From Nemertoderma westbladi (lineage: Eukaryota > Animalia > Xenacoelomorpha): DNA of 64,000 bases. Shown here one piece after another: positions 7,497-34,960 of this stretch. The notes beneath the pieces were generated by a model. It saw nothing but the letters and a program-made list of their open reading frames with translations, did no database searches and had not been told where the DNA came from. The stretch covers positions 17,592-81,591 of the forward strand of contig JAUCBJ010000109.1 in assembly GCA_032718475.1 (NCBI GenBank), written 5' to 3'. How positions within the stretch are numbered: the stretch's first letter is position 1; the number at the start of each line of letters is the position of its first letter. The position numbers and the translations under genes are program-made.

Positions 7497-10400
7497 TATG
7501 TAGATGTGGTGATTTACCTTACTACAGTAGTAATCCATCTAACAGCTATATAGATGTGGTGGCTTACCTTACTACAGTAGTACTCCATCACCAACTATGT
7601 AGATGTGGTGGTTTACCTTACTACAGTAGTACTCCATCAACAGCTATGTAGATGTGGTGGCTTACCTTACTACAGTAGTACTCCATCAACAGCTATGTAG
7701 ATGTGGTGGTTTACATTACTACAGTAGTACTCCATCAACAGCTATGTAGATGTGGTGACTTACCTTACTACAGTAGTACTCCATCAACAGCTATGTAGAT
7801 GTGGTGACTTACCTTACTACAGTAGTACTCTATCAACAGCTATGTAGATGTGGTGGCTTACCTTACTACAGTAGTACTCCATCAACAACTATGTACTTAT
7901 GTAGATGTGGTGGCTTACCTTACTACAGTAGTACTCCATCAACAGCTATGTAGATGTGGTGATTTACCTTACTACAGTAGTACTCCATCTAACAGCTCTA
8001 TAGATGTGGTGGCTTACCTTACTACAGTAGTACTCCATCACCAACTATGTAGACGTGGTGGCTTACCTTACTACAGTAGTACTCCATCAACAGCTATGTA
8101 GATGTGGTGGCTTACCTTACTACAGTAGTACTCCATCAACAGCTATGTAGATGTGGTGGTTTACATTACTACAGTAGTACTCCATCAACAGCTATGTAGA
8201 TGTGGTGGTTTACCTGACTACAGTAGTACTCCATCACCAGCTATGTAGACGTGGTGGTTTACCTTACTACAGTAGTACTCCATCAACAGCTATGTATAGA
8301 TGTGGTGACTTGCCTTACTACAGTAGTACTCCATCTACAGCTATATGTAGATGTGGTGGTTTACCTTACTACAGTTAGTAGTACTCCACCTACAGCTATA
8401 TGTAGATGTGGTGGCTTATCTTACTACAGTAGTACTCCATCAACAGCTATGTAGATGTGGTGGTTTACCTTACTACAGTAGTACTCCATCTACAGCTATA
8501 TGTAGATGTGGTGGTTTACCTTACTACAGTAGTACTCCATCAACAGCTATGTAGATGTGGTGACTTACCTTACTACAGTAGTACTCCATCAACAGCTATG
8601 TAGATGTGGTGGCTTACCTTACTACAGTAGTACTCCATCAACAGCTATGTAGATGTGGTGGCTTACCTTACTACAGTAGTACTCCATCAACAGCTATGTA
8701 GATGTGGTGGTTTACCTTACTACAGTAGTACTCCATCAACAGCTATGTAGATGTGGTGGTTTACCTGACTACAGTAGTACTCCATCACCAGCTATGTAGA
8801 CGTGGTGGTTTACCTTACTACAGTAGTACTCCATCAACAGCTATGTATAGATGTGGTGACTTGCCTTACTACAGTAGTACTCCATCTACAGCTATATGTA
8901 GATGTGGTGGTTTACCTTACTACAGTTAGTAGTACTCCACCTACAGCTATATGTAGATGTGGTGGCTTATCTTACTACAGTAGTACTCCATCAACAGCTA
9001 TGTAGATGTGGTGGTTTACCTTACTACAGTAGTACTCCATCTTCAGCTATATGTAGATGTGGTGGTTTACCTTACTACAGTAGTACTCCATCAACAGCTA
9101 TGTAGATGTGGTGACTTACCTTACTACAGTAGTACTCCATCAACAGCTATGTAGATGTGGTGGCTTACCTTACTACAGTAGTACTCCATCAACAGCTATG
9201 TAGATGTGGTGGTTTACCTTACTACAGTAGTACTCCATCAACAGCTATGTAGATGTGGTGGTTTACCTTACTACAGTAGTACTCCATCAACAGCTATGTA
9301 GATGTGGTGGTTTACCTTACTACAGTAGTACTCCATCAACAGCTATGTAGATGTGGTGGTTTACCTTACTACAGTAGTACTCCATCTACAGCTATGTAGA
9401 TGTGGTGACTTACCTTACTACAGTAGTACTCCATCAACAGCTATGTAGATGTGGTGGTTTACCTTACTACAGTAGTACTCCATCAACAGCTATGTAGATG
9501 TGGTGGTTTACCTTACTACAGTAGTACTCCATCAACAGCTATGTAGATGTGGTGGTTTACCTGACTACAGTAGTACTCCATCACCAGCTATGTAGACGTG
9601 ATGGTTTACCTTACTACAGTAGTACTCCATCAACAGCTATGTATAGATATGGTGACTTGCCTTACTACAGTAGTACTCCATCTACAGCTATATGTAGATG
9701 TGGTGGTTTACCTTACTACAGTAGTACTCCATCACCAGCTATGTAGACGTGGTGGTTTACCTTACTACAGTAGTACTCCATCAACAGCTATGTATAGATA
9801 TGGTGACTTGCCTTACTACAGTAGTACTCCATCTACAGCTATATGTAGATGTGGTGGTTTACCTTACTACAGTAGTACTCCATCACCAGCTATGTAGACG
9901 TGGTGGTTTACCTTACTACAGTAGTACTCCATCAACAGCTATGTATAGATGTGGTGACTTGCCTTACTACAGTAGTACTCCATCTACAGCTATGTAGATG
10001 TGGTGGTTTACCTTACTACAGTAGTACTCAATCAACAGCTATGTATAGATGTGGTGACTTGCCTTACTACAGTAGTGCTCCATCTACAGCTATGTAGATG
10101 TGGTGGTTTACCTTACTACAGTTAGTAGTACTCCACCTACAGCTATATGTAGATGTGGTGGCTTATCTTACTACAGTAGTACTCCATCAACAGCTATGTA
10201 GATGTGGTGGTTTACCTTACTACAGTAGTACTCCATCTACAGCTATATGTAGATGTGGTGGTTTACCTTACTACAGTAGTACTCCATCAACAGCTATGTA
10301 GATGTGGTGACTTACCTTACTACAGTAGTACTCCATCAACAGCTATGTAGATGTGGTGGCTTACCTTACTACAGTAGTACTCCATCAACAGCTATGTAGA

Positions 10401-13400
10401 TGTGGTGACTTACCTTACTACAGTAGTACTCCATCAACAGCTATGTAGATGTGGTGGTTTACCTTACTACAGTAGTACTCCATCAACAGCTATGTAGATG
10501 TGGTGGTTTACCTTACTACAGTAGTACTCCATCAACAGCATGTAGATGTGGTGACTTACCTTACTACAATGTGGTGGCTTACCTTACTACAGTAGTACTC
10601 CATCTACAGCTATGTAGATGTGGTGGTTTACCTTACTACAGTTAGTAGTACTCCATCTAAAGCTATATGTAGATGTGGTGGTTTACCCTACTACAGTAGT
10701 ACTCCATCAACAGCTATGTAGATGTGGTGACTTACCTTACTACAGTAGTACTCCATCAACAGCTATGTAGATGTAGTGGTTTACCTTACTACAGTAGTAC
10801 TCCATCTACAGCTATATGTAGATGTGGTGACTTACCTTACTACAGTAGTACTCCATCAACAGCTATGTAGATGTGGTGACTTACCTTACTACAGTAGTAC
10901 TCCATCAACAGCTATGTAGATGTGGTGACTTACCTCACTACAGTAGTACTCCATCAACAGCTATGTAGATGTGGTGGTTTACCTTACTACAGTAGTACTC
11001 CATCAACAGCTATGTAGATGTGGTGGTTTACCTTACTACAGTAGTACTCCATCAACAGCATGTAGATGTGGTGACTTACCTTACTACAATGTGGTGGCTT
11101 ACCTTACTACAGTAGTACTCCATCAACAGCTATGTAGATGTGGTGGTTTACCTTACTACAGTAGTACTCCATCTACAGCTATATGTAGATGTGGTGACTT
11201 ACCTTACTACAGTAGTACTCCATCAACAGCTATGTAGATGTGGTGACTTACCTTACTACAGTAGTACTCCATCAACAGCTATGTAGATGTGGTGGCTTAC
11301 CTTACTACAGTAGTACTCCATCAACAGCTATGTAGATGTGGTGGCTTACCTTACTACAGTAGTACTCCATCAACAGCTATGTAGATGTGGTGGTTTACCT
11401 TACTACAGTAGTACTCCATCAACAGCTATGTAGATGTGGTGGTTTACCTGACTACAGTAGTACTCCATCACCAGCTATGTAGACGTGGTGGTTTACCTTA
11501 CTACAGTAGTACTCCATCAACAGCTATGTATAGATGTGGTGACTTGCCTTACTACAGTAGTACTCCATCTACAGCTATATGTAGATGTGGTGGTTTACCT
11601 TACTACAGTTAGTAGTACTCCACCTACAGCTATATGTAGATGTGGTGGCTTATCTTACTACAGTAGTACTCCATCAACAGCTATGTAGATGTGGTGGTTT
11701 ACCTTACTACAGTAGTACTCCATCTACAGCTATATGTAGATGTGGTGGTTTACCTTACTACAGTAGTACTCCATCAACAGCTATGTAGATGTGGTGACTT
11801 ACCTTACTACAGTAGTACTCCATCAACAGCTATGTAGATGTGGTGGCTTACCTTACTACAGTAGTACTCCATCAACAGCTATGTAGATGTGGTGGTTTAC
11901 CTTACTACAGTAGTACTCCATCAACAGCTATGTAGATGTGGTGGTTTACCTTACTACAGTAGTACTCCATCAACAGCTATGTAGATGTGGTGGTTTACCT
12001 TACTACAGTAGTACTCCATCAACAGCTATGTAGATGTGGTGGTTTACCTTACTACAGTAGTACTCCATCTACAGCTATGTAGATGTGGTGACTTACCTTA
12101 CTACAGTAGTACTCCATCAACAGCTATGTAGATGTGGTGGTTTACCTTACTACAGTAGTACTCCATCAACAGCTATGTAGATGTGGTGGTTTACCTTACT
12201 ACAGTAGTACTCCATCAACAGCTATGTAGATGTGGTGGTTTACCTGACTACAGTAGTACTCCATCACCAGCTATGTAGACGTGATGGTTTACCTTACTAC
12301 AGTAGTACTCCATCAACAGCTATGTATAGATATGGTGACTTGCCTTACTACAGTAGTACTCCATCTACAGCTATATGTAGATGTGGTGGTTTACCTTACT
12401 ACAGTAGTACTCCATCACCAGCTATGTAGACGTGGTGGTTTACCTTACTACAGTAGTACTCCATCAACAGCTATGTATAGATATGGTGACTTGCCTTACT
12501 ACAGTAGTACTCCATCTACAGCTATATGTAGATGTGGTGGTTTACCTTACTACAGTAGTACTCCATCACCAGCTATGTAGACGTGGTGGTTTACCTTACT
12601 ACAGTAGTACTCCATCAACAGCTATGTATAGATGTGGTGACTTGCCTTACTACAGTAGTACTCCATCTACAGCTATGTAGATGTGGTGGTTTACCTTACT
12701 ACAGTAGTACTCAATCAACAGCTATGTATAGATGTGGTGACTTGCCTTACTACAGTAGTGCTCCATCTACAGCTATGTAGATGTGGTGGTTTACCTTACT
12801 ACAGTTAGTAGTACTCCACCTACAGCTATATGTAGATGTGGTGGCTTATCTTACTACAGTAGTACTCCATCAACAGCTATGTAGATGTGGTGGTTTACCT
12901 TACTACAGTAGTACTCCATCTACAGCTATATGTAGATGTGGTGGTTTACCTTACTACAGTAGTACTCCATCAACAGCTATGTAGATGTGGTGACTTACCT
13001 TACTACAGTAGTACTCCATCAACAGCTATGTAGATGTGGTGGCTTACCTTACTACAGTAGTACTCCATCAACAGCTATGTAGATGTGGTGACTTACCTTA
13101 CTACAGTAGTACTCCATCAACAGCTATGTAGATGTGGTGGTTTACCTTACTACAGTAGTACTCCATCAACAGCTATGTAGATGTGGTGGTTTACCTTACT
13201 ACAGTAGTACTCCATCAACAGCATGTAGATGTGGTGACTTACCTTACTACAATGTGGTGGCTTACCTTACTACAGTAGTACTCCATCTACAGCTATGTAG
13301 ATGTGGTGGTTTACCTTACTACAGTTAGTAGTACTCCATCTAAAGCTATATGTAGATGTGGTGGTTTACCCTACTACAGTAGTACTCCATCAACAGCTAT

Positions 13401-34400: not shown

Positions 34401-34816
34401 TATATGTAGATGTGGTTAACTTACTACAGTAGTACTCCATCAACAGCTATGAAGATGTGGTGGCTTACCTTACTACATTAGTACTCCATCAACAGCTATG
34501 TAGATGTGGTGACTTACCTTACTACAGTAGTACTCCATCAACAGCTATGTAGATGTGGTGGCTTACCTTACTACATTAGTACTCCATCAACAGCTATGTA
34601 GATGTGGTGGTTTACCTTACTACAGTAGTACTCCATCTACAGCTATATGTAGATGTGGTGGTTTAACTTACTACAGTAGTACTCCATCAACAGCTATGAA
34701 GATGTGGTGACTTACTTTACTACAGTAGTACTCCATCAACAGCTATGTAGATGTGGTGGCTTACCTTACTACAGTTGTAGTACTCCATCAACAGCTATGT
34801 AGATGTGGTGACTTAC
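7497..34816 (-). repeat. 49-bp satellite derived from a CstF-77 exon end plus 5' splice site (~550 copies)
   Basis: Minus-strand unit CACCACATCTACATAGCTGTTGATGGAGTACTACTGTAGTAAGGTAAGT, contiguous with and nearly identical to the exon/intron junction at 34864-34811. Confidence 0.97.
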
Positions 34817-34960
34817 CTTACTACAGTAGTACTCCATCAAAGCCGCGGCTATGTAGATGTGGTGGCCGCAACGCAAATCATCTCTTGCCTTTTTGAACAC
34901 AACGCGGGCCGATTTTATTCCTTCCGCCCTCCTGGCGAATCTCATGTACTGCACGTAGGC
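34817..34960 (-). CDS. CSTF3: CstF-77 internal exon
   Basis: [52 protein letters not shown] acceptor, GTAAGT donor, 48 codons. Confidence 0.93.

What the first reader, a model, noticed from the sequence alone, without database searches (positions are those of the whole stretch)
7497..34864. 27-kb satellite built from the host exon's own 3' end and 5' splice site: ~550 tandem donor sites in a CstF-77 intron
Seen: the exon ends CAC CAC ATC TAC ATA GCC GCG GCT TTG ATG GAG TAC TAC TGT AGT AAG|GTAAGT. The satellite unit is the same sequence 5 nt shorter (..ATAGCTGTTGATG..), starting right after the true donor. Most units keep AAG|GTAAGT, GTAAGC or GTAAAC on the sense strand, with the same exonic context as the real donor. 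Reading past the first donor gives [20 protein letters not shown], so distal donor use should truncate the protein. Known: U1 snRNP binds such sites and suppresses premature polyadenylation, and CstF-77/su(f) autoregulates through intronic polyadenylation. Inference: the array could be a U1 landing pad or sponge that protects a giant TE-filled intron, a poison-splicing rheostat, or a neutral junction-seeded expansion that the spliceosome must still resolve.
Basis: partly seen in the sequence, partly recalled or inferred. Interest (0 to 1): 0.82.

Follow-up and report, generated by a model that had tools for sequence, protein, structure and literature searches.

The report
Giant splice-donor repeat in CstF-77
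The end of one exon of an animal's RNA-processing gene CstF-77, with its splice signal, is copied about 555 times in a row into the next intron, yet the one spliced transcript-like assembly found uses the first signal and the copied signals are the most eroded part of the repeat, so this is likely a tolerated, oversized case of a repeat type known from lancelets and human genes.

Summary
Observation confirmed. Window 7497-34810 holds 555 full 49-nt units plus a partial one. Each copies the 3' end of the CstF-77 exon 34960-34817 (human residues 377-424) plus its donor; 487 of 555 keep GT. The repeat is hundreds-fold enriched in DNA contigs of two samples. The array does not end naturally at 7497: an LTR element cuts it there, so 27 kb is a minimum.

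The functional reading is not supported. A run that behaves as RNA holds one spliced contig (depth 1684) that leaves at the first donor, one pure-repeat contig (depth 22.5) and no distal-donor contig. The array has no poly(A) hexamer and no pyrimidine tract. The known autoregulatory intron is a different one.

The kind is known: lancelet "mirage" minisatellites and human F7, CBS, 6-16 and ABCA7 repeats (ABCA7 up to about 427 units). The scan noted many similar arrays in other genes of this genome (unchecked notes). One less ordinary lead remains: the copied donors may be under selection to weaken (rough p 0.001-0.13). Interest 0.36.

The parts
34817..34960 (-). CstF-77 (CSTF3/su(f)) coding exon, 144 nt, human residues 377-424; its last 48 nt are the template of the repeat
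   Evidence: phmmer to PDB CstF-77 chains, E 2e-21 to 1e-20; tblastn with 9 homologs; spliced contig of run X4 covers it with 0 differences
34811..34816 (-). True 5' splice site, AAG|GTAAGT, the first donor and of the strongest class present
   Evidence: sequence; X4 contig leaves the genome here for the next exon
34811..34864 (-). The exon's own 54-nt copy of the unit (48 exon nt plus 6 intron nt)
   Evidence: cyclic alignment, unit 0
7497..34810 (-). Tandem array: 555 full units of mostly 49 nt plus a partial one; 108 distinct unit sequences, mean 95.6% identity to consensus; 487 keep GT
34766..34771 (-). Two in-frame stop codons in the first copied unit, just before its donor; use of any copied donor would carry them into the mRNA
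   Evidence: translation
1..7496 (+). LTR retroelement with a gag-like DUF1759 ORF, antisense to the gene; its 3' LTR ends at 7496 and cuts the array inside a unit
   Evidence: self-BLAST to the LTRs ending at 51218 and 62472; Pfam PF03564; exact 1164-nt twin of 7497-8660 at 22496, where the array runs on
43576..43767 (-). Preceding CstF-77 exon; spliced directly to the 34960 acceptor in the X4 contig
   Evidence: tblastn; loose end of the X4 contig equals window 43576-43605
44004..45697 (-). Three further CstF-77 exons (about 45697-45494, 45079-44932, 44130-44004; borders approximate), residues about 153-312
   Evidence: tblastn and hmmsearch
37141..43529 (.). Unrelated 18-bp satellite, 351 copies, filling most of the preceding intron and starting about 46 nt after that intron's donor; shares no 12-mer with the 49-nt unit consensus

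Best explanation
This is a real tandem array of the CstF-77 exon end plus its splice donor, likely a tolerated by-product of repeat expansion (a very large 'mirage' minisatellite) rather than a regulatory device. Inferred history: a short tandem duplication copied the last 48 exon bases and 6 intron bases; the copy lost 5 bases; unequal exchange amplified it to at least 555 units; an LTR element later inserted into it. The gene keeps working because splicing takes the first donor, which belongs to the strongest class in the array, and discards all copies with the intron. Occasional use of a copied donor would add a premature stop. That small cost may be why donor-weakening variants are over-represented in the array.
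For: Shown: unit anatomy. Exact internal duplications up to 2107 nt and 108 distinct unit sequences, as expected from unequal exchange. High-copy repeat in DNA contigs of two samples: summed depth 14,776 vs 14.9 on the exon in X2, 817 vs 3.64 in X3, 10,935 vs 17-28 on exact-match intron contigs in X1 (the tool warns that this is no copy number). Run X4 has 2 contigs on 34710-35030: a 376-nt one at depth 1684 joining the upstream exon, this exon and the next exon at the first donor, and an 82-nt pure-repeat one at depth 22.5. The joined 3' letters read DPQITFKIFE against DKNIAFRIFEL-type residues in homologs. The 9 donor positions rank 1 of 49 windows for variability; GT positions vary in 7-8% of units against a median of 0.4% elsewhere. 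An unrelated satellite fills the previous intron. Precedent: first-donor use in F7 and no disturbance of splicing by lancelet mirages. Unchecked scan notes list similar arrays in many unrelated genes of this genome.
Against: X4 is listed as 'DNA?'; its RNA nature is my inference from the intron-skipping contig and zero depth on unique intron. It is one run, and contigs drop rare variants, so low-level or NMD-cleared distal splicing is not excluded. X5 and X6 gave 0 contigs. No contig bridges the exon into the array by 31 bases, so array length rests on this assembly. One AATAAA lies 59 nt beyond the array inside the LTR (7438), where U1 bound to the array could mask it. An unchecked note (e1-10614089) reports splicing from an internal copy at another locus.
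Confidence: 0.8

Rival explanations
1. Poison-splicing rheostat: a regulated share of transcripts uses a copied donor, gains a stop and is destroyed, tuning CstF-77 level.
For: Every copied donor lies downstream of in-frame stops. About 116 copies equal the true donor 9-mer. Human 6-16, CBS and ABCA7 arrays show some use of the nearest copies. NMD would hide such products from steady-state contigs.
Against: No distal-donor contig among the 2 laid from X4. One or two copies would suffice for this role; 555 are not needed. Donor positions are eroding rather than conserved. Similar arrays are noted in many unrelated genes (unchecked).
Confidence: 0.07
2. U1 landing pad or sponge: the copies load U1 snRNP along 27 kb and protect the long intron from premature cleavage and polyadenylation.
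For: 487 GT donors on the sense strand only. An AATAAA sits 59 nt past the array in the antisense LTR. U1 controls CstF-77 intronic polyadenylation in human cells (PMC3708835).
Against: The array itself has 0 AATAAA/ATTAAA. The commonest variant has lost the +5 G (225 of 555 AAG|GTAAAC) and 68 lost GT. The LTR cuts the array, so it came later and cannot explain its origin. The human regulated intron is intron 3 with a weak donor, not this one. As a sponge, a single gene's nascent RNA is small against the cellular U1 pool (recalled order of magnitude, not measured).
Confidence: 0.06
3. The intron is removed in steps, with the AAG|GT of the copies serving as recursive splice points.
For: Each intact unit has AG directly before GT, and the intron exceeds 34.8 kb.
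Against: No run of 8 pyrimidines and no pyrimidine-tract-plus-YAG pattern on the sense strand of the array. Four of the five acceptor contexts I printed for this window are T-rich before the AG; the array context is not.
Confidence: 0.04
4. Assembly artefact: a short repeat was inflated by the assembler.
For: Exact internal duplicates of 2107, 1246 and 1164 nt; no contig spans the array.
Against: 108 distinct unit sequences among 555. Hundreds-fold depth excess of the repeat in an independent sample (X2, X3). Exon contigs in X2 and X3 stop at 34824 and 34811, where the repeat begins. A clean LTR insertion site cuts a unit. At most a few kb could be over-expanded.
Confidence: 0.03

Closest known systems
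Lancelet 'mirage' minisatellites (Adh3, globins BflGb6 and BflGb9, troponin C, PGBD5). Seen: passages of PMC3087553 and PMC3902484.
   Same: Tandem copies spanning an exon-intron boundary; many but not all keep the splice signal; normal mRNA is still made; turnover by unequal exchange.
   Different: In the passages I read, copy numbers are 2-7 (globin, PGBD5); here at least 555 over 27 kb, cut by an LTR element. I did not determine the organism, and could not test length instability between alleles.
Human minisatellites whose first monomer spans an exon-intron boundary: F7 intron 7 (37 bp, 5-9 copies), 6-16 (25 pseudo-sites), CBS intron 13 (15-20), LMNB2, PDGF. Seen: abstract, introduction and passages of PMC1557585.
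   Same: The true donor is followed by reiterated pseudo-donors; only the first, or the first few, are used.
   Different: Twenty to a hundred times more copies here; the unit is mostly exon (43 of 49 nt), whereas F7's holds 4 exon bases.
ABCA7 intron 18 VNTR. Seen: passages of PMC5954066.
   Same: Unit carries the donor GT; alleles reach about 427 units (10.7 kb); use of the second copy gives a frameshift and premature stop.
   Different: The 25-bp ABCA7 unit starts at the GT and holds no exon sequence; length there is linked to skipping of the next exon, which I could not test here.
CstF-77 autoregulatory intronic poly(A) site. Seen: passages of PMC3708835.
   Same: Same gene; a large intron; U1 is involved.
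   Different: That is intron 3 of 21 exons with a very weak donor and a conserved poly(A) site; this intron follows residue 424, has a near-consensus donor and no hexamer in the array.

Membership tests
Mirage / exon-junction minisatellite | Tandem unit spans an exon-intron boundary of the host gene | tested here: met
   43 exon-derived nt plus 6 intron nt, first copy is the exon itself
Mirage / exon-junction minisatellite | Minisatellite-sized unit (10-160 bp in the lancelet cases) | tested here: met
   49 nt in 368 units, 51 nt in 100; range from PMC3087553
Mirage / exon-junction minisatellite | Many but not all copies keep the splice signal | tested here: met
   487 of 555 keep GT
Mirage / exon-junction minisatellite | Regular mRNA is made from the authentic site | tested here: met
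   One spliced contig in one run inferred to be RNA, joined at the first donor; rare products not excluded
Mirage / exon-junction minisatellite | Turnover by unequal exchange | tested here: met
   Runs of up to 43 identical units repeated at offsets of 55 and more units
Mirage / exon-junction minisatellite | Length differs between alleles or cells | not testable with these tools
   Only short-read contigs were served; depth is no copy number
CstF-77 autoregulatory intron | Intron 3, early in the gene, with a weak 5' splice site | tested here: not met
   Intron follows residue 424; donor matches 8 of 9 consensus positions
CstF-77 autoregulatory intron | Conserved intronic poly(A) site | tested here: inconclusive
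   0 hexamers in the array, 2 AATAAA in the LTR element; the rest of the intron lies outside the window
Recursive splice sites | Pyrimidine tract and YAG directly before GT (definition recalled) | tested here: not met
   AAG|GT present, but 0 pyrimidine tracts on the sense strand
Functional (selected) U1-site array | Donor positions more conserved than the rest of the unit | tested here: not met
   Donor 9-mer is the most variable of 49 windows
Functional (selected) U1-site array | U1 occupancy and effect on premature cleavage | not testable with these tools
   Needs CLIP and 3'-end sequencing

The most novel reading that the evidence does not exclude
The array records selection against its own splice signals. 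Variants that weaken or kill the copied donor spread through the repeat more than variants elsewhere in the unit, because leaky use of copied donors costs functional CstF-77. If the many sister arrays noted in this genome show the same skew, this animal is a natural experiment in how splice fidelity shapes satellite sequence, with hundreds of competing donors per intron, and would show how 'first donor wins' holds up at extreme scale.
Probability: 0.3. Interest if true: 0.62.

Novelty: new member of a known kind. Interest (0 to 1): 0.36.

Why it matters
It shows that an essential RNA-processing gene can carry at least 555 exon-end copies, most with a GT donor, and still give a correctly spliced message, beyond the copy numbers in the papers I read (up to about 427 for ABCA7, under 30 for units that include exon sequence). 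It makes two questions testable: whether first-donor choice stays strict over tens of kilobases of decoys, and whether selection erodes decoy donors inside a satellite. It does not look like a new regulatory system, and the CstF-77 link looks incidental.

Tried and rejected
No whole genome is held for this window, so I could not scan for other copies of the unit or for the next exon.

No RNA holder was listed by the run search; this is no evidence either way. X5 and X6 gave 0 contigs on the junction. X1 has no cover on most of the exon; the tool says a hole proves nothing.

tblastn with 9 of 120 homologs, an HMM from up to 60 full-length homologs, and a motif scan found no CstF-77 exon for residues 1-152 or beyond 424 in the window.

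The first donor tally (aligned rows) misplaced gaps in 26 units. I redid it with affine gaps; 11 units there still show false gaps at +5/+6, so direct string counts are used for the three named classes. Searches left out 12 short units; one search used all 555.

The variability tests were run at four count thresholds and two position sets. With +5 and +6 left out (their ancestral state is uncertain), binomial p was 0.03-0.13 and base-matched permutation p 0.015-0.09. GT alone was not significant by variant kinds at threshold 1 (p 0.36-0.41). The first five copied donors are all weaker than the true one, but chance gives that about one time in three (my arithmetic from the class shares).

One 12-mer of the unit occurs outside the array near 45100; treated as chance.

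Paper searches with no hit: satellite DNA + giant introns + recursive splicing; 'spans the exon-intron' + cryptic donor + minisatellite. Searches gave nothing further on such arrays (listings only, plus passages of PMC10078293). I found no paper on donor erosion in such arrays in these searches; subscription papers and supplements were not seen. A CBS paper on a substitution in the second repeat that blocks alternative splicing is recalled, not read.
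Full report
1. Observation. Tandem Repeats Finder reports one array at 7497-34840 with period 49 and 545.9 copies. A cyclic alignment on the minus strand gives the exon's own 54-nt copy at 34864-34811, then 555 full units and one partial unit. The 144-nt exon 34960-34817 matches solved CstF-77 chains (E 2e-21 to 1e-20; residues 378-424 of the 717-residue chain). 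Its 3' part is conserved coding sequence in animal homologs (118 of 120 listed proteins carry the terminal motif), so the repeat came from the exon and not the reverse. Two in-frame stops lie in the first copied unit before its donor.

2. Gene context. tblastn with 9 homologs and a profile search place five CstF-77 exons, residues about 153-424, between 45697 and 34817. No exon for the first 152 residues or for anything after 424 lies in the window, so the intron is longer than 34.8 kb. The preceding intron holds an unrelated 18-bp satellite of 351 copies.

3. The array is cut, not ended. Sequence 6823-7492 matches the ends of two LTRs further right. All three share the same terminal 12 bases, ending in CA at 7496, 51218 and 62472. 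The right-hand element (49108-62472) begins with TG and has a 5-bp target duplication; both elements carry a DUF1759 ORF (the BEL/Pao label is recalled). Bases 7497-8660 have an exact twin at 22496, where the array simply continues. So an LTR element inserted into an existing array, and 27 kb is a minimum. An earlier first-reader note on the same stretch gives about 600 copies over a longer span, which agrees but is unchecked.

4. Is it real? The array has 108 distinct unit sequences, and exact internal duplicates up to 2107 nt. Five runs hold the neighbouring unique DNA, from three samples, one possibly the source. On 34710-37100, summed contig depth over the repeat is 14,776 against 14.9 on the exon in X2, and 817 against 3.64 in X3 (both one independent sample); in X1 it is 10,935 against 17-28 on exact-match intron contigs. 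The tool warns that these are not copy numbers, but the repeat is clearly high-copy outside the source sample. Exon contigs in X2 and X3 end at 34824 and 34811, where the repeat makes the graph branch. No contig bridges into the array, so its exact length rests on this assembly.

5. Which donor is used? Run X4 is labelled 'DNA?' but behaves as RNA: zero depth on unique intron (36150-37029; 34963-35030) and a contig that skips an 8.6-kb intron. On 34710-35030 it has 2 contigs. One, 376 nt at depth 1684, covers the exon with no difference. Its upstream loose end equals window 43576-43605, the end of the previous exon. Its downstream loose end leaves at the first donor and reads DPQITFKIFE by my hand translation, matching the residues that follow in homologs (DKNIAFRIFEL in 44, DKDIAFRIFEL in 28, EKTVAFKIFEL in 16 of 118). 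The other, 82 nt at depth 22.5, is repeat only. No contig joins a copied donor to the next exon. X5 and X6 gave nothing. This shows first-donor splicing in one run; it cannot exclude rare or NMD-cleared products.

6. Are the copied donors conserved? No. With all 555 units realigned, minor-variant shares at -3..+6 are 3.4, 2.2, 1.3, 7.7, 7.2, 0, 0.5, 48.7 and 33.7%, against a median of 0.4% and mean of 1.5% for positions 1-40. The donor 9-mer ranks 1 of 49 windows. Of variant kinds seen in 5 or more units, 9 of 23 fall in these 9 positions (binomial p 0.016, base-matched permutation 0.004). Leaving out +5 and +6, whose ancestral state is uncertain, the window ranks 2 of 47 and p runs from 0.015 to 0.13 by test and threshold. 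Collapsing repeated contexts kept the rank at 2 of 47. GT loss is commoner on the strongest background: 42 of 155 units with +5G/+6T against 12 of 265 with +5A/+6C, but these come from only five donor types. Cautions: units share ancestry, this is one array with one history, several thresholds were tried, and the donor sits in a short direct repeat (GTAAG twice) that could template changes; the 15 AAG|TCAAGT units look like such an event.

7. Other functional readings. The array has 0 AATAAA and 0 ATTAAA on the sense strand; the first AATAAA downstream is at 7438 in the LTR, which U1 on the array could in principle mask, though the LTR is younger than the array. There is no pyrimidine tract for recursive splicing. 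CstF-77 autoregulation in vertebrates uses intron 3, with a very weak donor and a 103-residue isoform (PMC3708835, passages); this intron lies far downstream and has a donor matching 8 of 9 consensus positions.

8. Mechanism. Shown: unit anatomy, stops before the copied donors, internal block duplications, LTR cut, first-donor splicing in one run, erosion of copied donors. Inferred: a junction-spanning tandem duplication, a 5-nt net loss in the copy, amplification by unequal exchange, tolerance because the first donor wins, and possibly weak selection against leaky copies.

9. Known kinds. PMC1557585 (abstract, introduction, passages) describes human minisatellites whose first monomer spans an exon-intron boundary (F7, 6-16, CBS, LMNB2, PDGF), with use of the first or first few donors. 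PMC3087553 and PMC3902484 (passages) describe lancelet 'mirages', which keep many splice signals and do not disturb mRNA; I reached these two through the scan's earlier notes. PMC5954066 (passages) gives a donor-bearing VNTR of up to about 427 units. This array meets every mirage feature I could test. It differs in size and in being mostly exon sequence. Unchecked scan notes list similar arrays, some larger, in many unrelated genes of this genome, which argues against anything special to CstF-77; one note reports use of an internal copy at another locus.

10. Verdict. Real, exon-derived, likely tolerated; a new and very large member of a known kind. Interest 0.36. The most novel reading not excluded is selection eroding decoy donors inside the satellite (probability 0.3, interest 0.62 if true).

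Noticed in passing
window 48871-47140, minus strand: A two-exon PICK1-like gene (PDZ plus Arfaptin/BAR domains; name recalled) lies on the same strand about 1.4 kb upstream of the first CstF-77 exon seen. The exons for CstF-77 residues 1-152 are not in the window, so it may be nested in a CstF-77 intron on the same strand.
   Followed up: partly
window 49108-62472, plus strand: Young full-length LTR element (LTRs 99% identical, TG...CA ends, 5-bp target duplication) about 240 nt upstream of the PICK1-like start codon. Gag-like DUF1759 only; no RT or integrase domain in the two ORFs I scanned. Its 5' LTR carries about 900 extra bases including a 46-bp repeat.
   Followed up: partly
window 37141-43529 and 35042-35084: An 18-bp satellite (351 copies) starts about 46 nt after the donor of the preceding intron, and 2.4 copies of the same unit sit near that intron's 3' end.
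   Followed up: partly
window about 35084-36104: A MITE-like element with 16-bp terminal inverted repeats and an apparent 8-bp target duplication, inserted in a remnant of the 18-bp repeat; high depth in all four runs laid.
   Followed up: partly
window 36150-37030: Contigs at about 90% identity and depth of several hundred cover this intron stretch in X1-X3, so it is another dispersed repeat.
   Followed up: no
within each 49-nt unit, positions 29-41: The unit holds a perfect 6-bp inverted repeat with a 1-nt spacer and, at the donor, a 5-bp direct repeat; either could have favoured the first duplication or local templated changes.
   Followed up: no
window 46673-46651 and 44273-44255: Long G and C homopolymer runs (about 20 nt) in introns near the CstF-77 exons.
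   Followed up: no
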